64,000 bases of DNA from contig CM126218.1 in NCBI GenBank assembly GCA_052327205.1, forward strand, positions 37,014,001 to 37,078,000, in the 5' to 3' direction. Shown piece by piece: positions 1,466 to 55,500 of this stretch. Position 1 is the first letter of the stretch; the number at the start of each line of letters is the position of its first letter. The position numbers and the translations under genes were made by a program. Under the pieces are notes generated by a model. That model made no database searches and was not told the DNA's origin. It worked only from the letters and a program-made list of their open reading frames with translations. Source of the stretch: Somniosus microcephalus (taxonomy: Eukaryota).

Positions 1466-1525
1466 CAGGTATGTAGCTGGTGGTAGACGTAGTGATAATC
1501 GGTGTCACTTCTGGTGACGTAATTT
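1466..1525 (-). CDS. 60-nt PTS repeat exon, type [21 protein letters not shown]
   Basis: ctctatag/gtaagt, phase 1-1. Confidence 0.85.
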
Positions 1526-4500
1526 CTATAGAGCAGGAAAAACATTTCAACCTGTTACACTGCACGCTGAGGCTCTGAGTCTGTATCAGGTTTAAAAACT
1601 TACTTTCCTGCTGCACATAGCCGAGCACAAAAGTTGCGAAAATTAAATCTATTCACTTCTATCTAAATCTATTCAATAAAATTATTTGAGCTGACAGAAT
1701 ACAACTAGTTAATGGCATTTACAGTAAGAACATCTTTTCCACAAGTATAAGAGTGGCTGGAATTGTCAGATAGATTTGATCGTGCTGTTAATGGAGTTCT
1801 TCGAAATATGAGTTTCAATGTCCAGTGGAAACTGCTTACAATGGACAGATCCATATTGACCCGAGTTCCCAGATGGTGGCTCTGAAAATCCTCAGGCAGC
1901 AATCCTGGCGATTATACCAGGGTCACACCTCCCAGGGCCCTCCACAGCTGACCTGACCAGAGTATGTAGGTCAGTGGGAGGTCCTGTTATTTAAATATTA
2001 TGGCAGGGACCTTCACCACAACATTCAGACACATGCCCTGCTGCTGTTTCTATTCAGTGGAAATATAAATTAACCTGCTGGCCATGCCGACATCTGCATC
2101 GGTCAGATTCTTGATATGTGTGTGGGCAGAATATTGGCTTATAATGCAGAAGAGCCCTATGCTAGCCCGGAACTTGGTGAACACATAACAGCTATTCTAA
2201 GTTTGCTGACTTTTCCAAACTGACTTGTGCAATACTTTATCACATTCTAGTTACACAATTTCACCACAATGATGTAAAGTACACCAAGCCAGCACAACAT
2301 TTGACTCTATGACTGATCTACCATCAAAGTGTTTTATCATGCTAGGTTTACATTCATCATTTGAAAGATCAAGGGGTGATTTTCATCTGCTTCCAAGGGT
2401 GGCAGTGGCGGAGGGAAAGTAATTCTAAAAAAGAACCGACTGCCCAGAGGCCGGCTGACTCGATTTTCTACCAGACATTGAAACAAGAACTGGTGAGCCC
2501 TGTACTTGGGCCCGGAACGGTGAGGAATAGTGCGACAGAGTTTTGCTGCTGAACATGTATGAATGGGTGAGTTGGGTCGGCTACATGACTTTCTATCATT
2601 CCTTGTTATTGTTTTACAACCTCAGTGTTGGACATTGTGTGACAAATAAATGAAAACGTGTTATTTAATAAGAATATATATTATAATACACCCTTCTCGC
2701 TTGGAACTTCCCTTGCCGGGGACACAGAACAGGAATAAGGGCGTGGATGTTAATGCACATTGCAAAATAATACGTCAATTGGTGTCAAATTCCTGATTTG
2801 CATCACACTATAATGACCAGAGATACAAACATTTCCAAAGCAAACAATTAGAAAGGAAAATTTGAGATGTAAAAATGAAAGCCGTGTTTTGTTACCTACT
2901 CAATGACAGACCACATGGAGTTAGAAACAATTCCCTTGAGGAGACAGACTTGGTGCAAGGTATCACTTACCAGGTATGTAGCTGGTGGTAGACGTAGTGG
3001 TAATCGGTGTCACTTCTGGTGATGTAATTTCTATAGAGCAGGAAAAACATTTCAACCTGTTACACTGCACGCTGAGGCTCTGAGTCTGTATCAGGTTTAA
3101 AAACTTACTTTCCTGCTGCACATAGCCGAGCACAAAATTACAAAAATTAAATCTATTCACTTCTATCTTAGTCTCTCAATAAAATTATTTTAGCAGAAAG
3201 AGAATACAACCATATAATGGCCCGTACATTCAGGACATAATTTCATCAAGTATAAGAGTGGCTGGAATTGTCAGATAGATTTGATCGTGCTATTAATGGA
3301 GTTCCTGGAATTTTAGTTTTCAATGTCCAGTGGAAACTGCTTACAATGGACAGATCCATATTGACCCGAGTTCCCAGATCAACAGTGGCTCTGAAAATAC
3401 TCGAGCAGCAGTCTTGGCGATTATACCAGGGTCACACCTCCCAAGGCCCTCCACAGCTGACCTGACCAGAATATGTAGGTCAGTGGGAGGTCCTGTCATT
3501 TAAATATTATGGCAGGGACCTTCACCACAATATTCAGACACATGCCCTGCTGCTGTTTCTATTCAGTGGAAAGAGATATGAAATTGCTGGCCATGCCCAC
3601 CTCTGGCCACTTTCTTGATATGTGTGTGGACAGAATATTGGCTTATAATACAGAAGAGCCCGATGCTAGCCCGGAAGGAGGTGAACACATAACAGCTATT
3701 CTAAGTTTGATGGCTTTTCCAAACTGACTTACATAGATACATAGATACATAGAAGATAGGAGCAGGAGTAGGCCATTCGGCCCTTCGTGCCTGCTCCGCC
3801 ATTCAATGAGATCATGGCTGATCCTTTAATTCAGTATCCCGTCCCCGCCTTCTCTCCGTAACCCTTAACCCCTTTTGCCCGTAGAAATATATCTAATTCC
3901 CTCTTAAATATATTTAATGAGCTGGCGTACACTGCCCTCTGTGGCAATGAGTTCCACAGGTTCACCACTCTCTGAGTGAAGAAATTCCCCCTCATCTCTG
4001 TCCTAAATGGTTTAGCCCTTATCCTTAAATTATGTCCTCTAGTTCTGTTCTCACCCGCCAAGGGAAACATTCCTTCTGCATCCAGTCTGTCTAGACCTGT
4101 CAGAATTTTATACACTTCTATGAGGTCCCCTCTCAATCTTCTAAACTCCAGTGTGTACATCCCTAAACTACATAGTCTCTCCTCATAGGTCATTCCCGCC
4201 ATTCCTGGTATCAGCCTGGTGAATCGCCGCTGCACCCCCTCCATGGCAAGAACATCCTTCCTCAGATGAGGCGACCAAAACTGTACACAGTACTCGAGGT
4301 GTGGTCTCACCAGTGCCCTGTACAGCTGCAGCAAGGTATCCCTGTTCCTGTATTCTAACCCTTTTGCTATGAAGGCCAGCATACCGTTTGCCTTCTTGAC
4401 CGCCTGTTGCACCTGCATGCTCGCCTTCAGTGACTGGTGTACAAGAACACCCAGGTCTCTCTGTACTTCCCCCTCTCCCAATCTATTGCCATTTAAATAA

Positions 4501-7500
4501 TAATTTGCCCTCCCGTTCCTGCACCCAAGGTGGATAACTTCGCACTTGTCCACATTATAGTGCATCTGCCATTTATCCGCCCAATCGCCCAGTCTGTCCA
4601 AATCGCTCTGGAGCTTCCTGGTCTCTTCCTCTGAGCCCACCCCCCCTCCTAGTTTAGTGTCGTCTGCAAATTTGGAAATGCTGCATCCGACTCCCTGATC
4701 CAGGTCATTAATGTAAATTGTGAACAGCTGGGGGCCCAGGACAGATCCCTGTGGTACCCCACTTGTTACTGCCTGCCATTCAGAAAATGAGCCGTTTATT
4801 CCAACTCTCTGTTTTCTATCTGACAGCCAGTTCCCTATCCACGCCAATACTTTCCCCTTTATCCCATGAGCCTCAATTTTCCATGCTAATCTTTTATGTG
4901 GGACCTTATCGAAGGCCTTTTGGAAGTCCAGGTACACCACATCTACTGGCTCTCCCCCATCTATTCTACCAGTTACTCCCTCAAAAAATTCCAATAGATT
5001 AGTCAAGCACGATTTACCCTTTGTAAATCCATGTTGACTCTGTCCTATCCTGTCCCCATTTGCTAAGTGCTCCGCTATTTCATCCTTAATGATGGACTCC
5101 AGCATTTTGCCCACAACTGATGTAAGGCTTACAGGTCTGTAATTACCTGCTTTTTCCCTACCCCCCTTTTTGAATAGTGGGGTAACGTTAGCTACCCTCC
5201 AATCCATGGGCACTGTTCCCGAGTCTAATGAATTCTGAAAAATCATCCTTAGTGCATCCGCTATCTCTAGGGCCACCTCCTTCAGTACCCTAGGATGCAT
5301 GTTATCAGGCCCTGGGGATTTGTCCACCTTCAATCCCTTTAGCTTCCTTAACACCATATCCTTAGAGATATTGATTTGCGTCAGTTCCTCCTTTGCCAAT
5401 GTCCCTATTTTTCCCGATATCCCAGGGAGGTTTTTTGTGTCTTCCTTCGTAAAGACTGACCCAAAGTATGCATTTAGTTGATCTGCCATTTCCTTATTTC
5501 CCATTATATATTCCCCCGTATCTGACTGCAATGGACCAACTTTGGTTTTCACCAGTCTTTTCCTTTTGATATACTTATAAAAGCTTTTGGAGTTAGTTTT
5601 TATATTTTCCGCCAGCTTGTTTTCGTAAGCTATTTTGCCCCTCTTGATTATGCCCTTTGCCCTCCTTTGCTCTATCTTAAACTGTTCCCAATCTTCCGCT
5701 CTGGCGCTTTTTTTGGCTATTTTATACGCCCTATCTTTGGATTTTATGCTGTCTCTAATTTCCCCTGTTATCCACGGTTGAGTCACCTTTTTAGATTTCC
5801 TTTTATGCCAGATTGGTATAAACAATTTTTGCAATTTTGTCATTCTATCTTTAAATGTTTGCCATTGTTTATCTACCTCCAGTCCTCCCAGGAACGTTGT
5901 CCAATCAGACCTACTCAGTTCCCGTCTCATGGCATCATAATTCCCCTTGTTTAAATTCAGGACCTTAGTCTCTGAGTCAATTTCTTCGCTCTCCATTTCG
6001 AGTGAGAAATCGATCATGTTATGATCGCTCTGACCCAAGGGTCCCCGTACAACAAGATTACTGATTAGTCCCTTCTCATTGCACAGTACCCAGTCCAATA
6101 TAGCCTGTTCCCGAGTTGGTTCCTCGACATATTGATCCAGATAACCATCCCTTAAACACTCAAGGAATTCCTCCTCCTCATTATTTTTACTGATTAGGCT
6201 AGTCCAATCTATATGTAAGTTAAAGTCACCTATGATGACAGCTGTGCTCTTATTGCACGCTTCTCTAATTTCCCTCGTGATGCCCTCCCTAACCTCTATT
6301 TTACTATTTGGAGGCCTATATACCACTCCTATTAATGTTTTTCGCCCCTCGCTATTTCTTAGCTCCACCCATATAGATTCTGTATTAACTGAGTTAATAT
6401 CCTTCCTTTCAATTGCATTTATCCCCTTTTTTACTAGCAATGCTACCCCTCCTCCCTTTCTTTTTTGTCGATCCTTCCTAAATACTGAATACCCCTGTAT
6501 GTTAAGCTCCCAGCCCTGCTCACCCTGCAACCATGTTTCCGTAATCCCAATTAGATCATAATTATTAACCTCTATTTCCACAGCTAATTCATCTACCTTG
6601 TTCCTGATGCTTCTCGCATTAAGGTATAAAACCCTCAGGCTTTTTTTATGCTCACATTTTTTATGAATTAGTTTGGCCCTTTGTTTTTTGTTCCTCACCC
6701 TTTTACCATTTATTTCTGTCTGCCTTTCACTTTCCTCTATTTCACTACATAGGTTTCTAGCCCCCTGCCATACTAGTTTAAATGCTCCCGAACTGCTTTA
6801 TCAAAAATTACCCCGAGAACATCAGTTCCATCTCTGCACAGGTGTAGACCGTCCCTTTTGTATAGGTCACACCTACCACAAAACTGGTTCCAATGCCTCA
6901 AAAATTTAAAACCCTCCCTCTTACACCACTGCTCAAGCCACGTATTTAGCCTAACTATCCTGTTCTCTGTACTCTTACTAGCACGTGGCACTGGTAGTAA
7001 TCCAGAGATTACTACCTTCGAGGTCCTACTTTTTAGCTTGGCTCCTAACTCCCTAAATTCTACTTGTAGGACCTCTTCCCTTTTTTTAGCTACGTCGTTG
7101 GTACCAACATGTATCACGACAACTGGCTGTTCCCCCTCCCCCTCCAGAATGTTCTGCACCCGCGCCGAGACATCCTTGACCCTTGCACCAGGGAGGCAAC
7201 ATACCATCCTGGAGTCTCGGTCGCGACCACAGAAACCCCTATCTATTCCCCTTACAATCGAATCCCCTATTACTATAGCCCTGCCACTCTTTTTCCCTCC
7301 CTTCTTTGCAACAGAGCCAGTCATGGTGCCATGAGCCTGGCTGCTGGTGCCTTCCCCCGATGTGTCACCCCCCCCGACAACAGTACCTAAGGCGGTGAAC
7401 CTGTTGCTAAGGGAGACAACCCCAGGGGATTTCTGCACTACCTTCCTGCCCTTGCTCTGCCTTTTGGTCACCCATGTACTGTCTACGCTGGCCTTAACCT

Positions 7501-10500
7501 GCGGTGTGACCAACTCACTAAATGTGCTATCCACACCCCTCTCAGAATCGTGGATGCTCCAAAGTGAGTCCATCTGCAGCTCAAGGGACTTGTGCAATGC
7601 TTTATCACATTATGTTTATAAAATTTCACTATTTTGGTGAAAAGAATATCAAGCCAGCACAACCTTTGACTGCATGACTGGTCGAGCACCAGGTTGTTTT
7701 ATCATACTCGTAGTTCATTCATCATTTGAAAGATTAAGGAGGTGATTTTTAGCTGCCTGTGAGGGGAGATGAAATTGTACAAAAAAATCTACTACCCAGA
7801 GGCCGCCCGACTCAATTTTCTAGCGGGCATTGAAACAAAAACTGCCAAACCCTGTACCTAGTCTCAGAACGGTGAGGAATAGTCCGACAGGGTTTTGCAG
7901 CTGAACCTGTAGCATGGAGAGAGATGGATCGGCTATATGACTTTCTCTCATTCCTTGATATGGTTTTACATACTCAGTTTAAATATTGTGTGACAAATAA
8001 TTTTGATAACTGAAAACATGTTATTTAATAATATATATTTCAATACATCCTTCTCGCTTGGAGGATCGCACAGCGGGGGCACATCATAGGAATAGAAGCG
8101 TGGAAGTTAATGCACATCGCAAAATAATCCATCAATTGGCCTCAAATTCCTCATTTGCATCACACTCCGCTAAACATTATGTCAGGAGCACAATTTCCTA
8201 AAAGCGCCCCTATAGGTTACAACATAATGACCAGAGATACAAACATTTCCAAAGCAAGCAATTAGAAAGGAAAATTTGAGATGTAAAAATGAAAGCCGTG
8301 TTTTGTTACCTACTCAATGACAGACCACATGGAGTTAGAAACAATCCACTTGTGGAGACAGACTTGGTGCAAGGTATAAAACTGCTGTCACTTACCAGGC
8401 ATGTAGCTGGTGGTAGACGTAGTGATAATCGGTGTCACTTCTGGTGACGTAATTTCTATAGAGCAGGAAAAACATTTCAACTTGTTACACTGCACGCTGA
8501 GGCTCTGAGTCTGTATCAGGTTTAAAAACTTACTTTCCTGCTGCACATAGCCGAGCACAAAAGTTGCGAAAATTAAATCTATTCACTTCTATCTAAATCT
8601 ATTCAATAAAATTATTTGAGCTGACAGAATACAACTAGTTAATGGCATTTACAGTAAGAACATCTTTTCCACAAGTATAAGAGTGGCTGGAATTGTCAGA
8701 TAGATTTGATCGTGCTGTTAATGGAGTTCTTCGAAATATGAGTTTCAATGTCCAGTGGAAACTGCTTACAATGGACAGATCCATATTGACCCGAGTTCCC
8801 AGCTGGTGGCTCTGAAAATCCTCGGGCAGCAATCCTGGCGATTATACCAGGGTCACACCTCCCAGGGCCCTCCACAGCTGACCTGACCAGAGTATGTAGG
8901 TCAGTGGGAGGTCCTGTTATTTAAATATTATGGCAGGGACCTTCACCACAACATTCAGACACATGCCCTGCTGCTGTTTCTATTCAGTGGAAATATAAAT
9001 TAACCTGCTGGCCATGCCGACATCTGCATCGGTCAGATTCTTGATATGTGTGTGGGCAGAATATTGGCTTATAATGCAGAAGAGCCCTATGCTAACCCGG
9101 AACTTGGTGAACACATAACAGCTATTCTAAGTTTGCTGACTTTTCCAAACTGACTTGTGCAATACTTTATCACATTCTAGTTACACAATTTCACCACAAT
9201 GATGTAAAGTACACCAAGCCAGCACAACATTTGACTCTATGACTGATCTACCATCAAAGTGTTTTATCATGCTAGGTTTACATTCATCATTTGAAAGATC
9301 AAGGGGTGATTTTCATCTGCTTCCAAGGGTGGCAGTGGCGGAGGGAAAGTAATTCTAAAAAAGAACCGACTGCCCAGAGGCCGGCTGACTCGATTTTCTA
9401 CCAGACATTGAAACAAGAACTGGTGAGCCCTGTACTTGGGCCCGGAACGGTGAGGAATAGTGCGATAGAGTTTTGCTGCTGAACCTGTATGAATGGGTGA
9501 GTTGGGTCGGCTACATGACTTTCTATCATTCCTTGTTATTGTTTTACAACCTCAGTGTTGGACATTGTGTGACAAATAAATGAAAACGTGTTATTTAATA
9601 AGAATATATATTATAATACACCCTTCTCGCTTGGAACTTCCCTTGCCGGGGACACAGAACAGGAATAAGGGCGTGGATGTTAATGCACATTGCAAAATAA
9701 TACGTCAATTGGTGTCAAATTCCTGATTTGCATCACACTATAATGACCAGAGATACAAACATTTCCAAAGCAAACAATTAGAAAGGAAAATTTGAGATGT
9801 AAAAATGAAAGCCGTGTTTTGTTACCTACTCAATGACAGACCACATGGAGTTAGAAACAATTCCCTTGAGGAGACAGACTTGGTGCAAGGTATCACTTAC
9901 CAGGTATGTAGCTGGTGGTAGACGTAGTGGTAATCGGTGTCACTTCTGGTGATGTAATTTCTATAGAGCAGGAAAAACATTTCAACCTGTTACACTGCAC
10001 GCTGAGGCTCTGAGTCTGTATCAGGTTTAAAAACTTACTTTCCTGCTGCACATAGCCGAGCACAAAATTACAAAAATTAAATCTATTCACTTCTATCTTA
10101 GTCTCTCAATAAAATTATTTTAGCAGAAAGAGAATACAACCATATAATGGCCCGTACATTCAGGACATAATTTCATCAAGTATAAGAGTGGCTGGAATTG
10201 TCAGATAGATTTGATCGTGCTATTAATGGAGTTCCTGGAATTTTAGTTTTCAATGTCCAGTGGAAACTGGTTACAATGGACAGATCCATATTGACCCGAG
10301 TTCCCAGATCAACAGTGGCTCTGAAAATACTCGAGCAGCAGTCTTGGCGATTATACCAGGGTCACACCTCCACAGCTGACCTGACCAGAATATGTAGGTC
10401 AGTGGGAGGTCCTGTCATTTAAATATTATGGCAGGGACCTTCACCACAATATTCAGACACATGCCCTGCTGCTGTTTCTATTCAGTGGAAAGAGATATGA

Positions 10501-13500
10501 AATTGCTGGCCATGCCCACCTCTGGCCACTTTCTTGATATGTGTGTGGACAGAATATTGGCTTATAATACAGAAGAGCCCGATGCTAGCCCGGAAGGAGG
10601 TGAACACATAACAGCTATTCTAAGTTTGATGGCTTTTCCAAACTGACTTGTGCAATGCTTTATCACATTATGTTTATAAAATTTCACTATTTTGGTGAAA
10701 AGAATATCAAGCCAGCACAACCTTTGACTGCATGACTGGTCGAGCACCAGGTTGTTTTATCATACTCGTAGTTCATTCATCATTTGAAAGATTAAGGAGG
10801 TGATTTTTAGCTGCCTGTGAGGGGAGATGAAATTGTACAAAAAAATCTACTACCCAGAGGCCGCCCGACTCAATTTTCTAGCGGGCATTGAAACAAAAAC
10901 TGCCGAAACCTGTACCTAGTCTCAGAACGGTGAGGAATAGTTCGACAGGGTTTTGCAGCTGAACCTGTAGCATGGAGAGAGATGGATCGGCTATATGACT
11001 TTCTCTCATTCCTTGATATGGTTTTACATACTCAGTTTAAATATTGTGTGACAAATCATTTTGATAACTGAAAACATGTTATTTAATAATATATATTTTA
11101 ATACATCCTTCTCGCTTGGAGGATCGCACAGCGGGGGCACATCATAGGAATAGAAGCGTGGAAGTTAATGCACATCGCAAAATAATCCATCAATTGGCCT
11201 CAAATTCCTCATTTGCATCACACTCCGCTAAACATTATGTCAGGAGCACAATTTCCTAAATGCGCCCCTATAGGTTACAACATAATGACCAGAGATACAA
11301 ACATTTCCAAAGCAAGCAATTAGAAAGGAAAATTTGAGATGTAAAAATGAAAGCCGTGTTTTGTTACCTACTCAATGACAGACCACATGGAGTTAGAAAC
11401 AATCCACTTGTGGAGACAGACTTGGTGCAAGGTATAAAACTGCTGTCACTTACCAGGTATGTAGCTGGTGGTAGACGTAGTGATAATCGGTGTCACTTCT
11501 GGTGACGTAATTTCTATAGAGCAGGAAAAACATTTCAACTTGTTACACTGCACGCTGAGGCTCTGAGTCTGTATCAGGTTTAAAAACTTACTTTCCTGCT
11601 GCACATAGCCGAGCACAAAAGTTGCGAAAATTAAATCTATTCACTTCTATCTAAATCTATTCAATAAAATTATTTGAGCTGACAGAATACAACTAGTTAA
11701 TGGCATTTACAGTAAGAACATCTTTTCCACAAGTATAAGAGTGGCTGGAATTGTCAGATAGATTTGATCGTGCTGTTAATGGAGTTCTTCGAAATATGAG
11801 TTTCAATGTCCAGTGGAAACTGCTTACAATGGACAGATCCATATTGACCCGAGTTCCCAGATGGTGGCTCTGAAAATCCTCGGGCAGCAATCCTGGCGAT
11901 TATACCAGGGTCACACCTCCCAGGGCCCTCCACAGCTGACCTGACCAGAGTATGTAGGTCAGTGGGAGGTCCTGTTATTTAAATATTATGGCAGGGACCT
12001 TCACCACAACATTCAGACACATGCCCTGCTGCTGTTTCTATTCAGTGGAAATATAAATTAACCTGCTGGCCATGCCGACATCTGCATCGGTCAGATTCTT
12101 GATATGTGTGTGGGCAGAATATTGGCTTATAATGCAGAAGAGCCCTATGCTAGCCCGGAACTTGGTGAACACATAACAGCTATTCTAAGTTTGCTGACTT
12201 TTCCAAACTGACTTGTGCAATACTTTATCACATTCTAGTTACACAATTTCACCACAATGATGTAAAGTACACCAAGCCAGCACAACATTTGACTCTATGA
12301 CTGATCTACCATCAAAGTGTTTTATCATGCTAGGTTTACATTCATCATTTGAAAGATCAAGGGGTGATTTTCATCTGCTTCCAAGGGTGGCAGTGGCGGA
12401 GGGAAAGTAATTCTAAAAAAGAACCGACTGCCCAGAGGCCGGCTGACTCGATTTTCTACCAGACATTGAAACAAGAACTGGTGAGCCCTGTACTTGGGCC
12501 CGGAACGGTGAGGAATAGTGCGATAGAGTTTTGCTGCTGAACCTGTATGATGGGGTGAGTTGGGTCGGCTACATGACTTTCTATCATTCCTTGTTATTGT
12601 TTTACAACCTCAGTGTTGGACATTGTGTGACAAATAAATGAAAACGTGTTATTTAATAAGAATATATATTATAATACACCCTTCTCGCTTGGAACTTCCC
12701 TTGCCGGGGACACAGAACAGGAATAAGGGCGTGGATGTTAATGCACATTGCAAAATAATACGTCAATTGGTGTCAAATTCCTGATTTGCATCACACTATA
12801 ATGACCAGAGATACAAACATTTCCAAAGCAAACAATTAGAAAGGAAAATTTGAGATGTAAAAATGAAAGCCGTGTTTTGTTACCTACTCAATGACAGACC
12901 ACATGGAGTTAGAAACAATTCCCTTGAGGAGACAGACTTGGTGCAAGGTATCACTTACCAGGTATGTAGCTGGTGGTAGACGTAGTGGTAATCGGTGTCA
13001 CTTCTGGTGATGTAATTTCTATAGAGCAGGAAAAACATTTCAACCTGTTACACTGCACGCTGAGGCTCTGAGTCTGTATCAGGTTTAAAAACTTACTTTC
13101 CTGCTGCACATAGCCGAGCACAAAATTACAAAAATTAAATCTATTCACTTCTATCTTAGTCTCTCAATAAAATTATTTTAGCAGAAAGAGAATACAACCA
13201 TATAATGGCCCGTACATTCAGGACATAATTTCATCAAGTATAAGAGTGGCTGGAATTGTCAGATAGATTTGATCGTGCTATTAATGGAGTTCCTGGAATT
13301 TTAGTTTTCAATGTCCAGTGGAAACTGCTTACAATGGACAGATCCATATTGACCCGAGTTCCCAGATCAACAGTGGCTCTGAAAATACTCGAGCAGCAGT
13401 CTTGGCGATTATACCAGGGTCACACCTCCCAAGGCCCTCCACAGCTGACCTGACCAGAATATGTAGGTCAGTGGGAGGTCCTGTCATTTAAATATTATGG

Positions 13501-43500: not shown

Positions 43501-46500
43501 CCAAAGCAAACAATTAGAAAGGAAAATTTGAGATGTAAAAATGAAAGCCGTGTTTTGTTACCTACTCAATGACAGACCACATGGAGTTAGAAACAATTCC
43601 CTTGAGGAGACAGACTTGGTGCAAGGTATCACTTACCAGGTATGTAGCTGGTGGTAGACGTAGTGGTAATCGGTGTCACTTCTGGTGATGTAATTTCTAT
43701 AGAGCAGGAAAAACATTTCAACCTGTTACACTGCACGCTGAGGCTCTGAGTCTGTATCAGGTTTAAAAACTTACTTTCCTGCTGCACATAGCCGAGCACA
43801 AAATTACAAAAATTAAATCTATTCACTTCTATCTTAGTCTCTCAATAAAATTATTTTAGCAGAAAGAGAATACAACCATATAATGGCCCGTACATTCAGG
43901 ACATAATTACATCAAGTATAAGAGTGGCTGGAATTGTCAGATAGATTTGATCGTGCTATTAATGGAGTTCCTGGAATTTTAGTTTTCAATGTCCAGTGGA
44001 AACTGCTTACAATGGACAGATCCATATTGACCCGAGTTCCCAGATCAACAGTGGCTCTGAAAATACTCGAGCAGCAGTCTTGGCGATTATACCAGGGTCA
44101 CACCTCCCAAGGCCCTCCACAGCTGACCTGACCAGAATATGTAGGTCAGTGGGAGGTCCTGTCATTTAAATATTATGGCAGGGACCTTCACCACAATATT
44201 CAGACACCTGCCCTGCTGCTGTTTCTATTCAGTGGAAAGAGATATGAAATTGCTGGCCATGCCCACCTCTGGCCACTTTCTTGATATGTGTGTGGACAGA
44301 ATATTGGCTTATAATACAGAAGAGCCCGATGCTAGCCCGGAAGGAGGTGAACACATAACAGCTATTCTAAGTTTGATGGCTTTTCCAAACTGACTTGTGC
44401 AATGCTTTATCACATTATGTTTATAAAATTTCACTATTTTGGTGAAAAGAATATCAAGCCAGCACAACCTTTGACTGCATGACTGGTCGAGCACCAGGTT
44501 GTTTTATCATACTCGTAGTTCATTCATCATTTGAAAGATTAAGGAGGTGATTTTTAGCTGCCTGTGAGGGGAGATGAAATTGTACAAAAAAATCTACTAC
44601 CCAGAGGCCGCCCGACTCAATTTTCTAGCGGGCATTGAAACAAAAACTGCCAAACCCTGTACCTAGTCTCAGAACGGTGAGGAATAGTCCGACAGGGTTT
44701 TGCAGCTGAACCTGTAGCATGGAGAGAGATGGATCGGCTATATGACTTTCTCTCATTCCTTGATATGGTTTTACATACTCAGTTTAAATATTGTGTGACA
44801 AATCATTTTGATAACTGAAAACATGTTATTTAATAATATATATTTTAATACATCCTTCTCGCTTGGAGGATCGCACAGCGGGGGCACATCATAGGAATAG
44901 AAGCGTGGAAGTTAATGCACATCGCAAAATAATCCATCAATTGGCCTCAAATTCCTCATTTGCATCACACTCCGCTAAACATTATGTCAGGAGCACAATT
45001 TCCTAAAAGCGCCCCTATAGGTTACAACATAAGGACCAGAGATACAAACATTTCCAAAGCAAGCAATTAGAAAGGAAAATTTGAGATGTAAAAATGAAAG
45101 CCGTGTTTTGTTACCTACTCAATGACAGACCACATGGAGTTAGAAACAATCCACTTGTGGAGACAGACTTGGTGCAAGGCATAAAACTGCTGTCACTTAC
45201 CAGGCATGTAGCTGGTGGTAGACGTAGTGATAATCGGTGTCACTTCTGGTGACGTAATTTCTATAGAGCAGGAAAAACATTTCAACTTGTTACACTGCAC
45301 GCTGAGGCTCTGAGTCTGTATCAGGTTTAAAAACTTACTTTCCTGCTGCACATAGCCGAGCACAAAAGTTGCGAAAATTAAATCTATTCACTTCTATCTA
45401 AATCTATTCAATAAAATTATTTGAGCTGACAGAATACAACTAGTTAATGGCATTTACAGTAAGAACATCTTTTCCACAAGTATAAGAGTGGCTGGAATTG
45501 TCAGATAGATTTGATCGTGCTGTTAATGGAGTTCTTCGAAATATGAGTTTCAATGTCCAGTGGAAACTGCTTACAATGGACAGATCCATATTGACCCGAG
45601 TTCCCAGATGGTGGCTCTGAAAATCCTCGGGCAGCAATCCTGGCGATTATACCAGGGTCACGCCTCCCAGGGCCCTCCACAGCTGACCTGACCAGAGTAT
45701 GTAGGTCAGTGGGAGGTCCTGTTATTTAAATATTATGGCAGGGACCTTCACCACAACATTCAGACACATGCCCTGCTGCTGTTTCTATTCAGTGGAAATA
45801 TAAATTAACCTGCTGGCCATGCCGACATCTGCATCGGTCAGATTCTTGATATGTGTGTGGGCAGAATATTGGCTTATAATGCAGAAGAGCCCTATGCTAG
45901 CCCGGAACTTGGTGAACACATAACAGCTATTCTAAGTTTGCTGACTTTTCCAAACTGACTTGTGCAATACTTTATCACATTCTAGTTACACAATTTCACC
46001 ACAATGATGTAAAGTACACCAAGCCAGCACAACATTTGACTCTATGACTGATCTACCATCAAAGTGTTTTATCATGCTAGGTTTACATTCATCATTTGAA
46101 AGATCAAGGGGTGATTTTCATCTGCTTCCAAGTGTGGCAGTGGCGGAGGGAAAGTAATTCTAAAAAAGAACCGACTGCCCAGAGGCCGGCTGACTCGATT
46201 TTCTACCAGACATTGAAACAAGAACTGGTGAGCCCTGTACTTGGGCCCGGAACGGTGAGGAATAGTGCGATAGAGTTTTGCTGCTGAACCTGTATGAATG
46301 GGTGAGTTGGGTCGGCTACATGACTTTCTATCATTCCTTGTTATTGTTTTACAACCTCAGTGTTGGACATTGTGTGACAAATAAATGAAAACGTGTTATT
46401 TAATAAGAATATATATTATAATACACCCTTCTCGCTTGGAACTTCCCTTGCCGGGGACACAGAACAGGAATAAGGGCGTGGATGTTAATGCACATTGCAA

Positions 46501-49500
46501 AATAATACGTCAATTGGTGTCAAATTCCTGATTTGCATCACACTATAATGACCAGAGATACAAACATTTCCAAAGCAAACAATTAGAAAGGAAAATTTGA
46601 GATGTAAAAATGAAAGCCGTGTTTTGTTACCTACTCAATGACAGACCACATGGAGTTAGAAACAATTCCCTTGAGGAGACAGACTTGGTGCAAGGTATCA
46701 CTTACCAGGTATGTAGCTGGTGGTAGACGTAGTGGTAATCGGTGTCACTTCTGGTGATGTAATTTCTATAGAGCAGGAAAAACATTTCAACCTGTTACAC
46801 TGCACGCTGAGGCTCTGAGTCTGTATCAGGTTTAAAAACTTACTTTCCTGCTGCACATAGCCGAGCACAAAATTACAAAAATTAAATCTATTCACTTCTA
46901 TCTTAGTCTCTCAATAAAATTATTTTAGCAGAAAGAGAATACAACCATATAATGGCCCGTACATTCAGGACATAATTTCATCAAGTATAAGAGTGGCTGG
47001 AATTGTCAGATAGATTTGATCGTGCTATTAATGGAGTTCCTGGAATTTTAGTTTTCAATGTCCAGTGGAAACTGCTTACAATGGACAGATCCATATTGAC
47101 CCGAGTTCCCAGATCAACAGTGGCTCTGAAAATACTCGAGCAGCAGTCTTGGCGATTATACCAGGGTCACACCTCCCAAGGCCCTCCACAGCTGACCTGA
47201 CCAGAATATGTAGGTCAGTGGGAGGTCCTGTCATTTAAATATTATGGCAGGGACCTTCACCACAATATTCAGACACATGCCCTGCTGCTGTTTCTATTCA
47301 GTGGAAAGAGATATGAAATTGCTGGCCATGCCCACCTCTGGCCACTTTCTTGATATGTGTGTGGACAGAATATTGGCTTATAATACAGAAGAGCCCGATG
47401 CTAGCCCGGAAGGAGGTGAACACATAACAGCTATTCTAAGTTTGATGGCTTTTCCAAACTGACTTGTGCAATGCTTTATCACATTATGTTTATAAAATTT
47501 CACTATTTTGGTGAAAAGAATATCAAGCCAGCACAACCTTTGACTGCATGACTGGTCGAGCACCAGGTTGTTTTATCATACTCGTAGTTCATTCATCATT
47601 TGAAAGATTAAGGAGGTGATTTTTAGCTGCCTGTGAGGGGAGATGAAATTGTACAAAAAAATCTACTACCCAGAGGCCGCCCGACTCAATTTTCTAGCGG
47701 GCATTGAAACAAAAACTGCCGAACCCTGTACCTAGTCTCAGAACGGTGAGGAATAGTCCGACAGGGTTTTGCAGCTGAACCTGTAGCATGGAGAGAGATG
47801 GATCGGCTATATGACTTTCTCTCATTCCTTGATATGGTTTTACATACTCAGTTTAAATATTGTGTGACAAATCATTTTGATAACTGAAAACATGTTATTT
47901 AATAATATATATTTTAATACATCCTTCTCGCTTGGAGGATCGCACAGCGGGGGCACATCATAGGAATAGAAGCGTGGAAGTTAATGCACATCGCAAAATA
48001 ATCCATCAATTGGCCTCAAATTCCTCATTTGCATCACACTCCGCTAAACATTATGTCAGGAGCACAATTTCCTAAAAGCGCCCCTATAGGTTACAACATA
48101 ATGACCAGAGATACAAACATTTCCAAAGCAAGCAATTAGAAAGGAAAATTTGAGATGTAAAAATGAAAGCCGTGTTTTGTTGCCTACTCAATGACAGACC
48201 ACATGGAGTTAGAAACAATCCACTTGTGGAGACAGACTTGGTGCAAGGTATAAAACTGCTGTCACTTACCAGGTATGTAGCTGGTGGTAGACGTAGGGAT
48301 AATCGGTGTCACTTCTGGTGACGTAATTTCTATAGAGCAGGAAAAACATTTCAACTTGTTACACTGCACGCTGAGGCTCTGAGTCTGTATCAGGTTTAAA
48401 AACTTACTTTCCTGCTGCACATAGCCGAGCACAAAAGTTGCGAAAATTAAATCTATTCACTTCTATCTAAATCTATTCAATAAAATTATTTGAGCTGACA
48501 GAATACAACTAGTTAATGGCATTTACAGTAAGAACATCTTTTCCACAAGTATAAGAGTGGCTGGAATTGTCAGATAGATTTGATCGTGCTGTTAATGGAG
48601 TTCTTCGAAATATGAGTTTCAATGTCCAGTGGAAACTGCTTACAATGGACAGATCCATATTGACCCGAGTTCCCAGCTGGTGGCTCTGAAAATCCTCGGG
48701 CAGCAATCCTGGCGATTATACCAGGGTCACACCTCCCAGGGCCCTCCACAGCTGACCTGACCAGAGTATGTAGGTCAGTGGGAGGTCCTGTTATTTAAAT
48801 ATTATGGCAGGGACCTTCACCACAACATTCAAGACACATGCCCTGCTGCTGTTTCTATTCAGTGGAAATATAAATTAACCTGCTGGCCATGCCGACATCT
48901 GCATCGGTCAGATTCTTGATATGTGTGTGGGCAGAATATTGGCTTATAATGCAGAAGAGCCCTATGCTAGCCCGGAACTTGGTGAACACATAACAGCTAT
49001 TCTAAGTTTGCTGACTTTTCCAAACTGACTTGTGCAATACTTTATCACATTCTAGTTCCACAATTTCACCACAATGATGTAAAGTACACCAAGCCAGCAC
49101 AACATTTGACTCTATGACTGATCTACCATCAAAGTGTTTTATCATGCTAGGTTTACATTCATCATTTGAAAGATCAAGGGGTGATTTTCATCTGCTTCCA
49201 AGGGTGGCAGTGGCGGAGGGAAAGTAATTCTAAAAAAGAACCGACTGCCCAGAGGCCGGCTGACTTGATTTTCTACCAGACATTGAAACAAGAACTGGTG
49301 AGCCCTGTACTTGGGCCCGGAACGGTGAGGAATAGTGCGATAGAGTTTTGCTGCTGAACCTGTATGATGGGGTGAGTTGGGTCGGCTACATGACTTTCTA
49401 TCATTCCTTGTTATTGTTTTACAACCTCAGTGTTGGACATTGTGTGACAAATAAATGAAAACGTGTTATTTAATAAGAATATATATTATAATACACCCTT

Positions 49501-52500
49501 CTCGCTTGGAACTTCCCTTGCTGGGGACACAGAACAGGAATAAGGGCGTGGATGTTAATGCACATTGCAAAATAATACGTCAATTGGTGTCAAATTCCTG
49601 ATTTGCATCACACTATAATGACCAGAGATACAAACATTTCCAAAGCAAACAATTAGAAAGGAAAATTTGAGATGTAAAAATGAAAGCCGTGTTTTGTTAC
49701 CTACTCAATGACAGACCACATGGAGTTAGAAATAATTCCCTTGAGGAGACAGACTTGGTGCAAGGTATCACTTACCAGGTATGTAGCTGGTGGTAGACGT
49801 AGTGGTAATCGGTGTCACTTCTGGTGATGTAATTTCTATAGAGCAGGAAAAACATTTCAACCTGTTACACTGCACGCTGAGGCTCTGAGTCTGTATCAGG
49901 TTTAAAAATTTACTTTTCTGCTGAATGTAGCCGAGCACAAAAATTGTGAAAATGAAATCTATTAATTTCCAAGTCTACACAATAAAATTATTTTAGTGGA
50001 GAGAGAATACAACTAATAAACGGCCCTTACATTCAGTACATCATTTCCACAATATAAGAATTGCTGGAATTGTCACCTAGATTTAATGCAGTTCCTGGAA
50101 ATATGATTATTCAATGGCCAGTGGAAACTACTTCCAATGAACAGATCCATATTGACCTCAGCTGTCCAGGTAAACAGTGGCTCTGAAAATACTCGGGCAG
50201 CAATCCTGGCGATTATTCCAGGGTCGCACCTCCCAGGGCCCTCCAGAGCTGACCTGACCAGTGTATGTAGGTCAGTGGGAGGTCCTGTCATTTAAATATT
50301 ATGGCAGGGACCTTCACCACAATATTCAGACACATGCCCTGCTGCTGTTTCTATGCAGTGGAAATAGAAATTACATTTAAGGCCATGCCGAATCCTGCAT
50401 CAGTCACTTTCTTGATATATGTGTGGGCAGCATATTAGCTTATAATGCAGTAGAGCCCAATGCTAGCCCAGAACTTCATGAACATATAACAGCTATTCTA
50501 AGTTTAATGGCTTTTCCATGCAGATTGCAAAATGTGTTTTCACATTCTAGTTACACAATTTCAGCACAATGGTGCGAAGAATATCAAGCCAGCACAACAT
50601 TTGACTCTGTGACTGATCTACCACCAAATTGTTTGGTCATGCTCCTTTTACACTCATCATTTGAAAGATCAAGGGGTGATTTTCATCTGCTTCCAAGGGC
50701 AGCAGTGGCGGAGGGAAAGTAATTCTAACAAATAACCGACTGCCCAGAGGCTGCCTGACTCGAATTTCTAGTGGGCATCGGAACAAAAACTGGCGAGCCC
50801 TGTACTCGGACTGGGATCGGTGAGGAATAGTGCGACAGGGTTTTGTATGATGGGGTGAGATGGATCGGCTACATGATTTTCTCTCATTCCTTGATATGGT
50901 TTTGCAACCTCAGTTTAAATTTTGTGTGACAAATAATTCTGATAACTGAAAACGTGTTATTTAATAATATATATTATAATACACTTTCTCACTTGGAGGA
51001 TCGCACGGTGGGGGCACACAACAGAAATAGAAGTGTGGAAATTAATGCACATTGCAAAATAATCTATCAATTGGCGTCAAATTCCTGATTTGCCTCACAC
51101 TCCACTAAACATTATTACAAAAAGAAAATACTGCAGATGCTGGAAATCTGAAATAAAAACAGAAAATGCTGGAGATACTCAGCAGGTCAGGCAGCATCTG
51201 TGAAGAGAGAAACAGAGTTAATGTTTCAGGTTGATGACCTTTCCTCAGAACTGGAAAAAAGCAGGAAATGGAACAGAGTTTTAAGCAAGTGCAGGGGCTG
51301 GGAAAGGCGGGGAGGGGATGGAAGAACAAAAGGGAAAGTCTGTGATAGGATAGAAGGCAGGAGAGGTTAAGAGACATTAAGAGATATTCAAGGAGATGGT
51401 AATGAACAGGTTAAGAAACAAACATAGAAACATAGAAGATAGGAGCAGGAGTAGGCCATTCGGCCCCTCGAGCCTGCTCCGCCATTCAATGCGATCATGG
51501 CTGATCATCCAAACTCAGTACCCTGTCCCTGCTTTCTCCCCATATCCCTTGATCCCTTTAGCCTTAAGAAATATATCTAACTCCTTCTTGAATATATTTA
51601 ATGAATTGGCCTCAACTGCCTTCTGTGGTAGAGAATTCCACAGGTTCACCACACTCTGGGTGAAGAAATTCCTCCTCATCTCTGTCCTAAATGGCTTACC
51701 CCTTATCTTTAGACTGTGACCCCTGGTTCTGGACTCCCCGGCCATCGGGAACATCCTTCCTGCATCTGGTCTGTCTAGTCCTGTTAGTATTGTATAAGTT
51801 TCAATGAGTTGGGGGAGGTATAAGGGCATGTGTTGCATCTCCTGTGCTTGCACGCCCCTTCCCATTGTCCAGGGCCCCAAACACCCCTTCCAGGTGAAAC
51901 AGCAATTTACTTGTACTTCTTGCAATTTAGTATACTGTACTCGCTGCTCACGATGTGGTCTCCTCTACATTGGGGAGACCAAACACAGATTGGGTGACCG
52001 CTTTGCGGAACACCTCCATTCAGTCCGTAAGGGGGACCCCGAGCTTCCAGTCGCCTGTCACTTTAATTCTCCGCTCCACTCCCACTCAGACCGCACCGTC
52101 CTCGGCCTCTTGCATTGTTCCACGGAAGCTCAGCGTAAGCTCGAGGAACAGCACCTCATCTTTCGATTAGGCACTTTACAGCCCTCTGGACTCAACATTG
52201 GGATCAACAATTTCAGATCATAACCTCGGCCCCTATCATATATATATTTTTTATCCACACCTTTTGTTTGTGTCTTTTCTTCTCTCCCACAGGGCAGCTG
52301 TCTTTCATTCTGCCAGCGCAATTTACACTTCATCTAGAGCCATCCTTTGTTTCTTAACCTGTCCCATTACCATCTCCTTTTGCCTTGAATATCTCTTAAT
52401 GTCTCTTAACCTCTCCTGCCTTCCATCCTATCACAGACCTTCCCTTTTGTTCTTTCATCACCTCCCCCCTTTCCCTGCCCCTACACTTGCTTAAAAATCT

Positions 52501-55500
52501 GTTCCATTTCCTGCTTTTTTCCAGTTCTGACATAAGGTCATCGACCTGAAATGTTAACTCTGTTTCTCTCTTCACAGATGCTGCCTGACCTGCTGAGTAT
52601 CTCCAGCATTTTCTGTTTTTATTTCACTAAACGTTATGTCAGGAGCAGAATTTCCTAAAAGCTGCCCTATAAGTAATAACATAATGACCATTTCCAAAGC
52701 AAACAATTGGAAAGGAAAATTTGTGATTTAAAAATGAAAGTCTTGTTTTGTTACCTACTCAATGACAGATCACATGGAGTTAGAAAACAATCCACTTGTG
52801 GAGACAGACTTGGTGCAAGGTATAAAACCGCTGTCACTTACCAGTTGGGTAGCTGGTGGTAGATGTAGGGATAATCGGTGTCACTTCTGGTGACGTAGTT
52901 TCTATAGAGCAGGAAAAACATTTCAACCTGTTACACTGCACGCTGAGGCTCTGAGTCTGTATCAGGTTTAAAAACTTAGGCCTAGAATTTCGCTATCGCC
53001 GCGCCAGGTGTTTAGCGCCCGAAATTTAGCGCTCGCCCGGATTCCCGTAGCGCCCGCCTGAAATTCAGTTGCAGCGCCCCAAGAGGGAGGCGGGCGCTAT
53101 TGCAGGGTTTGGCCGCCTCACTTGGGGCGCTGAAAGTCAGTTTCAGGCGTCCAGCTGCCGCTGCGCCACCCGATGCGGTGCGGCAGGCTGGGGTACTGCA
53201 GGCCTCCTCCTTCTCTTAAGGAGGAGCTGCCTGCAGCCGTGAGATCGCCGCTGGATTCCCCCGGCAAATGAGCCCGGCACCACGGAGAAGTGCTGGGCTC
53301 GCGGGGGTCAGACACCAATGCCGCGGGGGGGTGGTGTGGGAGTCCGGGGAGGAAGGAGCGGCCAAGCGGCCGCCGGTAAAGCGGACGGCCGCACCTCCAC
53401 CTTTACGCCCCGGCCTCTCGGAGCTGCAAGGCCCCGTTTTACAAACGCTCCTTGCGCCCGCTACGGGTGAGGCGGCGGCAAGTGAATTTGGGTGTTGGGC
53501 CGGCATCGCGTTGAAACCGGGGCGCTGCGCACACCGATGACATCATCGGTGCCGGCACAGCGCTACCGGCTAACGCCACCATTTGCGCTACACTGAATTC
53601 CAGGCTACCAACAGCGCCGGCGCTAAAGACCTCTTTAGGCGCTAAGTGGGCGCTAACACCACTGAATTTCTAGGCCTTACTTTCCTGCTGCACATAGCCG
53701 AGCACAAACATTGTGAAAATTAAATCTATTCACTTGTATCTAAATCTACTCAATAAAGTTATTTGAGCTGACAGAGAATACAACTAGTTAATGGCCCTTA
53801 CAGTAAGAACATCTTTTCCACAAGTATAAGAGTGGCTGGAATTGTCAGATAGATTTGATCGTGCTGTTAATGGAGTTCCTGGTAATATGAGTTTTCAATG
53901 TCCAGTGGAATCTTCTTCCAATGGACAGATCCATATTGACCTCAGCTGTCCAGATAAACAGTGGCTCTGAAAATACTCGGGCAGCAATCCTGGTGATTAT
54001 TCCAGGGTCACACCTCCCAGGGCCCTCCACAGCTGACCTGACCAGAGTATGTAGGTCAGTGGGAGGTCCTGTCATTGAAATATTATGGCAGGGACCTTCA
54101 CCACAATATTCAGACACATGCCCTGCTGCTGTTTCTATTCAGTGGAAATAGAAATTAACCTGCTGGCCATGCCGACCAATGCATCAGTCACTTTCTTGAT
54201 ATGTGTGTGGGCAGAATATTGGCTTATAATGCACAAGAGCCCTATGCTAGCTCGGTACATTATGAACACATAACAGCTATTCTAAGTTTGCTGACTTTTC
54301 AAACTGACTTGTACAATACTTTATCACAGTCTAGTTACACAATTTCACCACAATCAAGTAAAGTACACCAAGCCAGCACAACATTTGACTCTATGACAGA
54401 TCTACCATCAAAGTGTTTTATCATGCTAGGTTTACATTCATCATTTGAAAGATCAAGGGGTGATTTTCATCTGCTTCCAAGGGCGGCAGTGGCGGAGGGA
54501 AAGTAATTCTAAAAAAGAACCAACTACCCAGAGGCCGCCTGACTTGATTTTCCACCAGGCATTGAAACAAAAACTGGCGAGCCCTATACTTGGGCTGGGA
54601 ATGGTGAGGAATAGTGCGATAGGGTTTTGCAGCTGAACCTGTATGATGGGGTGAGATGGATCATCTACATGACCTTCTCTCATTCCTTGTTATGGTTTTA
54701 CAACCTCAGTGTTGACATTGTGTGACAAATAAATGAAAACGTGTTATTTAATAAGAATATATATTATAAAAATACACCCTTCTCACTTGGAACTTCTCTT
54801 GCCGGGGACACAGAACAGGAATAAGGGCATGGATGTTAATGCACATTGCAAAATAATACGTCAATTGGTGCCAAATTCCTGATTTGCATCACACTATAAT
54901 GACCAGAGATACAAACATTTCCAAAGCAAACAATTAGAAAGGAAAATTTGTGATGTAAAAATGAAAGCCGTGTTTTGTTACCTACTCAATGACAGACCAC
55001 ATGGAGTTAGAAAACAATCCACTTGTGGAGACAGACTTGGTGCAAGGTATAAAACCGCTGTCACTTACCAGTTGGGTAGCTGGTGGTAGACGTAGGGATA
55101 ATCGGTGTCACTTCTGGTGAAGTAGTTTCTATAGAGCAGGAAAAACATTTCAACCTGTTACACTGCATGCTGAGGCTCTGAGTCTGTATCAGGTTTAAAA
55201 ACTTACTTTTCTGCTGAATGTAGCTGAGCACAAACATTGTGAAAATGAAATCTATTCATTTCTAAATGTACTCAATAAAATTATTTTAGTGGAGAGAGAA
55301 TATTAACTAATAAACGGCCCTTACACACAAGGGTAGGCATTTGTGTGTTTTAGCCAATGTTCGTGTAAAGTTTCTGTTAATGTGTTGTCAAGCATTGAAA
55401 TCTTTATTTTCGACACTTTGCCTTCTTGGACAGATTTGTGTGCACCTTTGAAAGTGTTTATTAGTGAGTTCCAGTGAATGGTGAGACATAACATCTCCCC

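What the first reader, a model, noticed from the sequence alone, without database searches (positions are those of the whole stretch)
1466..55128. Mucin PTS domain encoded as one micro-exon per ~1.5-kb tandem cassette (32 symmetric exons in view)
Seen: what looks like a 3-kb satellite hides, on the minus strand, a 60-nt exon in every monomer. Each has a polypyrimidine/AG acceptor and a consensus G|GTAAGT donor, is phase 1-1 and stop-free, and continues the frame of the unique mucin exons at 55989-60911. Only about 4% of the array is coding; the 20-mer is 60-65% P/T/S. Established: MUC2, MUC5AC and MUC5B encode their PTS repeats mainly in one large exon, whereas MUC19 and frog FIM-B.1 use many small exons. 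Inference: here whole exon+intron cassettes are amplified and homogenised, so mucin length could vary in 20-aa steps both by unequal crossover and by frame-neutral exon skipping. Repeat masking would hide this from annotation.
Basis: partly seen in the sequence, partly recalled or inferred. Interest (0 to 1): 0.82.

Follow-up and report, generated by a model that had tools for sequence, protein, structure and literature searches.

The report
Shark mucin built from exon cassettes
What looks like satellite DNA is part of a mucus-protein gene, likely from a shark or ray, that spells one of its repeat domains as 51 tiny exons (most of them inside a copied 1.5-kb block) which RNA reads show being spliced together; the array likely grows and shrinks by unequal crossing-over, a design already known from chicken and schistosome mucins.

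Summary
Confirmed. All 32 exons in the window are 60 nt, AG/GTAAGT-bounded, phase 1-1 and stop-free; the array holds 51 over 95 kb. They belong to a 98-exon, 3563-aa open frame: D1-D2-D'D3, 45 micro-exons, CysD, 6 more, CysD plus a conventional large VNTR exon, D4, cystine knot. One same-species RNA run shows the predicted GT-AG junctions: A-to-B 31 reads, B-to-A 12, A-to-A 6, B-to-B none listed. The core is about 19 AB dimers, 99.7% identical, with a tetramer period. The D'D3 tree places it with mammalian MUC19, not MUC2/5/6. Two neighbouring paralogues have their own arrays (141+ and 39 micro-exons), and shark and ray orthologues share the 19-20-aa unit. The design is known (chicken Muc13, SmPoMuc); its scale, higher-order structure and spread across an elasmobranch MUC19-like cluster were not found in ten literature searches.

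The parts
60786..60911 (-). Unique D3-end exon, 126 nt. It is preceded, beyond the window's right end, by 25 exons for the signal peptide, D1, D2, D' and most of D3 (G000:C17:37087034-37139205)
   Evidence: the intron to the next exon is spliced in a contig of a related species (X2, depth 113)
60259..60400 (-). Unique Cys-rich exon, 142 nt
58425..58456 (-). Unique 32-nt Cys-rich exon that sets phase 1 for the PTS exons
   Evidence: model only
57268..57318 (-). Unique 51-nt phase 1-1 Thr-rich exon
   Evidence: model only
55989..56045 (-). Unique 57-nt phase 1-1 PTS exon
   Evidence: model only
55069..55128 (-). Micro-exon 1 of 51, in a diverged 5' flank cassette
52842..52901 (-). Micro-exon 2 of 51, in a flank cassette interrupted by insertions
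1..49835 (-). Homogenised core: 3.07-kb AB dimers, 30 micro-exons in view. Beyond the window's left end follow 19 more micro-exons (to G000:C17:36974332), a CysD exon (36992369-36992710), a 1865-nt CysD+VNTR exon (36957256-36959120) and 12 exons for D4 to the cystine knot (36927992-36952889)
   Evidence: 18 dimers differ by a mean of 10.3 substitutions in 3069 bp; 6135-bp tetramer period at 37558-19153; downstream exons
46706..46765 (-). Representative A exon (60 nt)
   Evidence: joined to a B exon in 31 RNA reads
45261..46705 (-). Representative 1445-nt GT-AG intron between A and B
   Evidence: joint 'skips 1445, CT..AC' in run X16; not listed for DNA-like run X9
45201..45260 (-). Representative B exon (60 nt)
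   Evidence: joined to a following A exon in 12 RNA reads
3731..7586 (-). 3856-bp CR1-like LINE in the intron of one B cassette, with a 988-codon open frame holding an RT domain
1466..1525 (-). Micro-exon 32 of 51, the last in view

Best explanation
This array is the first repeat domain of a MUC19-like gel-forming mucin gene, likely of a shark or ray: 51 symmetric 60-nt exons, which RNA reads show spliced to one another and which are likely included mostly in genomic order, would give a predicted 1020 aa of glycosylatable 20-aa repeats, and the array likely expands and homogenises by unequal crossing-over and gene conversion of whole exon+intron cassettes. Shown: exon anatomy, one open frame through 98 exons, spliced junctions, dimer and tetramer structure, mosaic variants, MUC19-clade placement, similar arrays in two paralogues. 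Inferred: the recombination mechanism (an old A/B duplication, then amplification of the AB dimer, then of a tetramer), O-glycosylation, secretion as a gel-forming polymer, and length polymorphism between individuals in 20- or 40-aa steps. Because every array exon, the first CysD exon included, is phase 1-1, any gain or loss of cassettes keeps the frame.
For: Exons and frame: (no non-canonical splice site among 98 exons; 3563 aa; no stop). Splicing: run X16: 31 A-to-B reads (12 starts, ends CT..AC), 12 B-to-A (6 starts), 6 A-to-A (4 starts), all with the first mate on +, which in most stranded libraries means minus-strand RNA; the main exon bins are covered 29-32x against 0-6x for intron bins; the joined form is absent from the three genomic regions held and not listed for run X9. 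Three reads start an exon with a variant found only in 3' copies of this locus, not in the relic copy. Link to the mucin: X2 contigs join a micro-exon to a CysD start and splice two D3 exons. Order: in-order inclusion predicts 78-90% alternating junctions, random pairing 46-53%; 18 of 22 starts alternate, P=0.002 at 50%. Concerted evolution: core 99.7% identical, flanks about 90%, shared variants in mosaic and alternating patterns. Family. Generality.
Against: Junction evidence comes from 1 of 2 same-species RNA runs, tissue unknown, at low depth (84 reads laid, about 31% of the run read); X15 gave 12 reads and no junction. X16 had no sense-strand depth on the unique D3 and PTS exons, and no listed joint links them to micro-exon 1 (158 joints were not shown). 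X2 is another species and its RNA status is a guess. Short reads cannot count exons per transcript. The exon is not more conserved than its flanks (18 of 60 variable columns against 12 of 63 just downstream), though it has no gap column and AG/GT are intact in 56 of 56 copies, so selection on the peptide is not shown. The tree is a quick LG+G4 tree labelled with database names, with no LRRK2 synteny found. The protein has D4 and CysD, unlike mammalian MUC19.
Confidence: 0.84

Rival explanations
1. Splicing is the main length dial: cells skip frame-neutral micro-exons, and CysD exons, to make a ladder of mucin lengths from one allele.
For: All array exons are phase 1-1. RefSeq isoforms of orthologues differ by whole units: 20, 40 aa and CysD blocks in Pristiophorus, mostly multiples of 19 aa in Scyliorhinus torazame, 18-20 aa in Hemiscyllium and Chiloscyllium. 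Proposed for chicken Muc13 (PMC1552070) and reported for SmPoMuc (PMC2576457) and frog FIM-C.1 (PMC7177656).
Against: No B-to-B joint listed (threshold 3 reads) where random pairing predicts 22% or more; the A-to-A share (6 of 49) is near the 5-10% expected from genomic neighbours. All 51 exons have the same strong donor. Automated isoforms among near-identical exons can come from ambiguous read mapping (inference).
Confidence: 0.2
2. The core is an intronic satellite that took a pseudo-exon along; only a few flank copies are used and the core is spliced out as one large intron.
For: The exon is as variable as nearby intron; no sense reads on unique exons in X16; a paralogue has some copies with damaged splice sites.
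Against: The commonest junctions join core-type A and B exons in alternation; 56 of 56 copies keep AG, GT and length; orthologues carry runs of the same unit in their protein models.
Confidence: 0.06
3. The number of cassettes is inflated or scrambled by assembly of a 99.7%-identical repeat.
For: A 62-kb core of 3-kb units can exceed accurate read lengths (general knowledge). X16 shows an exon variant not found in the assembly.
Against: No N in the region; dimers carry their own variant sets and one has a unique LINE; contigs of DNA-like run X9 show depth 174-222 on the cassette against 7-10 on diverged single copies, roughly matching 20 dimers (weak, because X9 may be the assembly's source and contig depth is not copy number).
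Confidence: 0.07

Closest known systems
Chicken Muc13 (PMC1552070; section 8 and passages read)
   Same: PTS domain with one 20-aa repeat per near-identical exon; the authors propose recombination plus splicing as length controls and suggest the design is ancestral.
   Different: Muc13 is a transmembrane SEA mucin with at least 12 repeats and an assembly gap; the passages seen say nothing on intron homogenisation. Here the gene is a gel-forming MUC19-like one with 51 exons, gap-free, in higher-order repeats.
Schistosoma mansoni SmPoMuc (PMC2576457; passages read)
   Same: A small repeat exon (27 bp) inside a ~1-kb genomic repeat, repeats >93% identical, concerted evolution, multigene cluster.
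   Different: At most 20 repeats, microsatellite spacers, and transcripts with more repeats than the gene. Here 51 to about 165 exons, AB/tetramer hierarchy, and junctions that fit in-order inclusion. Unrelated protein.
Mammalian MUC19 / fish spiggin clade (PMC4948705; passages read)
   Same: D'D3 groups with seven mammalian MUC19; bat MUC19 isoforms differ by 10-31-aa blocks, which implies small exons; three Muc19 paralogues are reported in Callorhinchus.
   Different: Has D4 (as some spiggins) and two CysD, which mammalian MUC19 lacks. PMC13345508 (passage) says the human MUC19 central exon is uninterrupted in the longest isoform. That human MUC19 has well over 100 exons is recalled, not read.
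MUC2 / MUC5AC / MUC5B
   Same: Domain order D1-D2-D'D3, PTS with CysD, D4, cystine knot; the second PTS block is a classic single-exon VNTR. Chicken MUC2 spreads its repeats over exons 32-44 with repeated flanking DNA (PMC3549977; passages).
   Different: Excluded by the tree; human MUC2 has both PTS domains on one large exon (PMC3549977).
Spider silk genes and Coccidioides SOWgp (as described in PMC2576457); LPA KIV-2 and frog FIM-B.1 (recalled, from no call)
   Same: Protein repeats amplified as exon+intron units under concerted evolution, exons no more uniform than introns.
   Different: Different proteins; in LPA the unit is a folded domain of two exons (recalled).

Membership tests
Gel-forming mucin | Signal peptide plus three N-terminal VWD assemblies | tested here: met
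   Exon model matches shark orthologues over residues 1-1180; Pfam VWD on the D1 exon and a second upstream exon; orthologue P0004 matches MUC2/5AC/5B head structures at E<1e-260. The signal peptide is judged by likeness only.
Gel-forming mucin | PTS-rich central domain | tested here: met
   900-aa block before CysD1, 63% P/T/S; second block of 508 aa
Gel-forming mucin | C-terminal cystine knot | tested here: met
   Pfam Cys_knot E 1.7e-5, over cut-off
Gel-forming mucin | Dense O-glycosylation and polymer secretion | not testable with these tools
   Inferred from family
MUC19/spiggin clade | N-terminal D domains group with MUC19 | tested here: met
   48-row D'D3 tree, SH-aLRT 100 for the clade of this locus, 12 chondrichthyan and 7 mammalian MUC19 rows; orthologue P0004 is 57-60% identical to MUC19, 42-48% to MUC2/5, 38-40% to MUC6. 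No row named spiggin was included.
Mammalian-type MUC19 | No fourth VWD (PMC4948705); CysD described there only for MUC2/MUC5 types | tested here: not met
   D4 and two Mucin2_WxxW domains present; so a clade member, not the mammalian architecture
MUC19/spiggin clade | Synteny with LRRK2 (recalled) | tested here: inconclusive
   One COR-domain hit, on contig C27, none on C17; 6 candidates scored, identity of the hit unknown
MUC2/MUC5 | Groups with MUC2 or MUC5 in the D-domain tree | tested here: not met
MUC2/MUC5 | D4 and CysD interspersed in PTS | tested here: met
Exon-cassette repeat genes (Muc13 / SmPoMuc type) | One protein repeat per symmetric exon, spliced | tested here: met
Exon-cassette repeat genes (Muc13 / SmPoMuc type) | Introns homogenised with the exons | tested here: met
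Exon-cassette repeat genes (Muc13 / SmPoMuc type) | Repeat number varied by splicing | tested here: inconclusive
   Alternation fits in-order inclusion in one shallow run; even-numbered skips are invisible
Exon-cassette repeat genes (Muc13 / SmPoMuc type) | Cassette number differs between individuals | not testable with these tools
   One assembly only; one exon variant in X16 is absent from it

The most novel reading that the evidence does not exclude
Sharks and rays have expanded a MUC19-like cluster into a modular mucus toolkit in which ~60-nt phase-1 PTS exons and CysD exons are interchangeable cassettes. Satellite-like turnover sets allele length and CysD spacing (51 exons here, about 165 in one paralogue, 15 CysD-bearing 3.4-kb units in another), and regulated skipping tunes brush length and cross-link spacing per tissue. 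The single large PTS exon of mammals would then be the derived state.
Probability: 0.2. Interest if true: 0.7.

Novelty: new variant of a known kind. Interest (0 to 1): 0.47.

Why it matters
It is a gap-free, RNA-supported case of a gel-forming mucin whose repeat domain evolves like a higher-order satellite, beside a conventional single-exon VNTR in the same gene and beside paralogues that use either design. That makes the 2006 suggestion (PMC1552070) that multi-exon PTS domains are ancestral and tunable by splicing directly testable with long reads. It also warns that elasmobranch 'mucin-2-like' models related to this gene group with MUC19, and that kilobase-period arrays inside genes should not be dismissed as satellites. 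The principle is not new.

Tried and rejected
TRF (period up to 500) misses the array. The run search gave no RNA holder listed; the two same-species RNA runs came in by species label. The first lay was swamped by CR1/SINE reads and showed no joint from unique exons into the array. A-to-A reads were considered as skipping and rejected as evidence: 5 uninterrupted genomic neighbours have that end/start pair (6, one split by a 30-nt exon) and simulation expects 5-10%. A test for purifying selection on the exon was uninformative. The 4-exon copy at C17:34.95 Mb was considered as a second gene; it is a truncated duplicate lacking CysD2-D4-CK and could give some reads but not the 3'-variant ones. 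My initial MUC2-like reading was dropped. LRRK2 synteny was inconclusive. A search for the X16 exon variant found 0 matches in the assembly. Earlier-findings look-ups were empty. PMC2042186 and PMC3175562 are not held, so frog and human MUC19 exon structures were not read; the FIM-B.1 claim remains recalled. No fold or complex was run: the repeat is low-complexity and no binding is claimed.
Full report
Observation. The window lies at G000:C17:37014001-37078000 of a 6.4-Gb genome. All 32 copies of the shared core are 60-nt exons on the minus strand with AG, G|GTAAGT, phase 1-1 and no stop. Real dimers hold 2 such exons; 2000 simulated dimers hold 0 P/T/S-rich ones. With 200 kb fetched on each side the array has 51 exons from C17:37069128 down to 36974332; 4 more lie in a duplicate at C17:34.95 Mb and 1 in an inverted fragment about 55 kb upstream of the gene's first exon.

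The gene. Shark proteins found with the D1 exon and with an orthologue guided an exon model built in a script: 98 exons over 211 kb (C17:37139205 to 36927992), all GT-AG, one open frame of 3563 aa. The order is signal peptide, D1-D2-D'D3, two unique PTS exons, 45 micro-exons (900 aa), a 342-nt CysD exon, 6 micro-exons with two 30-nt and one 57-nt exon, a 1865-nt exon with CysD and a conventional VNTR (about 508 aa), D4 and a cystine knot. Pfam confirms VWD, two Mucin2_WxxW and Cys_knot on 5 of 7 exons submitted; the two short D3-end exons had no hit. One gene thus uses both designs of repeat domain. The closest proteins are all from cartilaginous fishes, hence the inference about the organism.

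Family. Over D'D3 the orthologue P0004 is 57-60% identical to mammalian MUC19, 42-48% to MUC2/MUC5 and 38-40% to MUC6. In a 48-row tree (47 database rows that I picked, plus this locus) the locus and 12 chondrichthyan rows join 7 mammalian MUC19 with SH-aLRT 100 (quick search, with long-branch warnings). It keeps D4, which mammalian MUC19 lacks and some spiggins keep, and has CysD, described for MUC2/MUC5 types (PMC4948705, passages). Synteny was inconclusive.

Splicing. No RNA holder was indexed; two raw RNA runs share the species label of the best DNA holder. On an A-B pair, X16 gave 84 reads: the 1445-nt intron skipped with CT..AC ends in 31 reads (12 starts), B-to-A in 12 (6 starts), A-to-A in 6 (4 starts), no B-to-B listed, all in one orientation. 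X15 gave 12 reads and no joint; DNA-like X9 showed none of these joints. The joined form is absent from the 1.26 Mb of genome held. In a related species, contigs of X2 splice two D3 exons and join a micro-exon to a CysD start. Against: X16 had no sense depth on the unique exons; at roughly 1-2x per exon copy with duplicated reads this is unsurprising by my estimate, but it leaves the 5' link unshown in this species.

Order of inclusion. Simulated reads give 78-90% alternating junctions for in-order inclusion and 46-53% for random pairs. Observed: 43 of 49 reads, 18 of 22 starts (P=0.002 against 50%). Single-exon skipping is therefore not common in this sample. Skips of two, four or more exons look like normal junctions, and the sample is one shallow run of unknown tissue.

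Evolution of the array. 18 of 19 full dimers were aligned (the one with the LINE was left out): mean 10.3 substitutions in 3069 bp, 16 shared variable columns in mosaic patterns, and four alternate dimers (37558, 31423, 25288, 19153) sharing a 3-bp deletion and linked variants, that is a 6135-bp tetramer. A and B are about 84% alike in mid-intron and 95-100% from about -90 to +210 around the exon start; flank cassettes are about 90% alike and carry insertions. A uniform centre with diverged edges is what unequal crossing-over predicts (as argued for SOWgp in PMC2576457); the mechanism itself is inferred. The exon is not more conserved than its flanks but has no indel, and splice dinucleotides are intact in 56 of 56 copies.

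Not a one-off. VWD hits mark several more mucin-like genes on C17 between 34.0 and 37.1 Mb. In the 600 kb examined, one paralogue (36.16-36.45 Mb) has 141 intact-scoring 57-63-nt phase-1 PTS exons among about 165 homologous copies over 250 kb; another (36.56-36.72 Mb) has 39, with 15 CysD exons mostly in 3431-bp units differing by 1-3 bases (5 units compared); the same scan found 0 on the opposite strand, 1 (the orphan copy) in 133 kb upstream of the focal gene, and 0 in the adjacent convergent mucin, which has a large-exon repeat. The focal A cassette does not align to the paralogues' arrays, so the arrays were likely homogenised separately. Orthologues across sharks and rays share a related 19-20-aa unit, and their RefSeq isoforms differ by whole units or CysD blocks. 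That implies the same exon design there; whether the isoforms are real skipping or mapping ambiguity cannot be told. Bat MUC19 and bird MUC2/MUC5 isoforms also differ by short or CysD-sized blocks, so multi-exon repeat domains appear widespread.

Known versus new. One 20-aa repeat per exon is described for chicken Muc13 (PMC1552070, section 8 and passages); a small exon in a homogenised 1-kb genomic repeat for SmPoMuc (PMC2576457, passages); multi-exon PTS for chicken MUC2 (PMC3549977, passages); splicing-based polymorphism for frog FIM-C.1 (PMC7177656, passages). PMC13345508 (listing and passages) treats human mucin VNTRs as large single exons. Ten searches found no description of an elasmobranch MUC19-like cluster with exon-cassette arrays; other hits were seen only as listings, subscription papers are mostly missing, two key papers were not held, and the supplements of PMC4948705, which may show Callorhinchus gene structures, were not opened.

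Verdict. Real, spliced, and mechanistically of a known kind. The variant features are scale, higher-order periodicity, co-existence with a large-exon VNTR, and use across a gene cluster. Interest 0.47.

Noticed in passing
window 3731-7586 (-): CR1-like LINE with an uninterrupted 988-codon frame (RT domain, Pfam E 1.6e-26), a cut upstream frame and a 3' microsatellite tail, in only one dimer of the core; other copies in the DNA held are at most 85% alike. Likely a young insertion that can serve as a marker for array turnover.
   Followed up: partly
G000:C17:36187000-36440000 (L085-L110): Paralogue with about 165 micro-exon copies over 250 kb, local 2.6-3.9-kb higher-order units, tandem NAGNAG acceptors on 72 of 141 exons, no CysD hit, and some copies with damaged splice sites.
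   Followed up: partly
G000:C17:36624500-36694100 (L069-L076): Paralogue whose 3431-bp cassette holds a 63-nt PTS exon, a CysD exon and a 60-nt PTS exon, 15 CysD copies, near identical: CysD spacing is amplified as a unit.
   Followed up: partly
G000:C17:36849100-36852400 (L017), + strand: Adjacent convergent mucin uses a large-exon 24-nt repeat; it is duplicated about 1.9 Mb away at 92-99% identity.
   Followed up: no
G000:C17:34950700-34959000 (L050): Truncated duplicate of the 3' end of the array (4 intact-looking micro-exons) joined to sequence from beyond the gene's last exon.
   Followed up: partly
G000:C17:37193762 (+) (L032): Single orphan micro-exon with intact splice sites in an inverted ~6-kb fragment upstream of the gene.
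   Followed up: partly
run X16 on window 45201: Five reads carry an A-type exon start with one substitution not found in the assembly; probably an allele of another individual.
   Followed up: partly
G000:C38:41280419-41319832 and C12:223332156-223394779: Regularly spaced VWD exons (5.9-kb period with identical scores on C38): other VWD-domain genes, FCGBP-like by guess, amplified as multi-exon cassettes.
   Followed up: no
window 52980-53676: A ~700-bp GC-rich insertion with inverted-looking ends just upstream of micro-exon 2, probably a non-autonomous DNA element.
   Followed up: no
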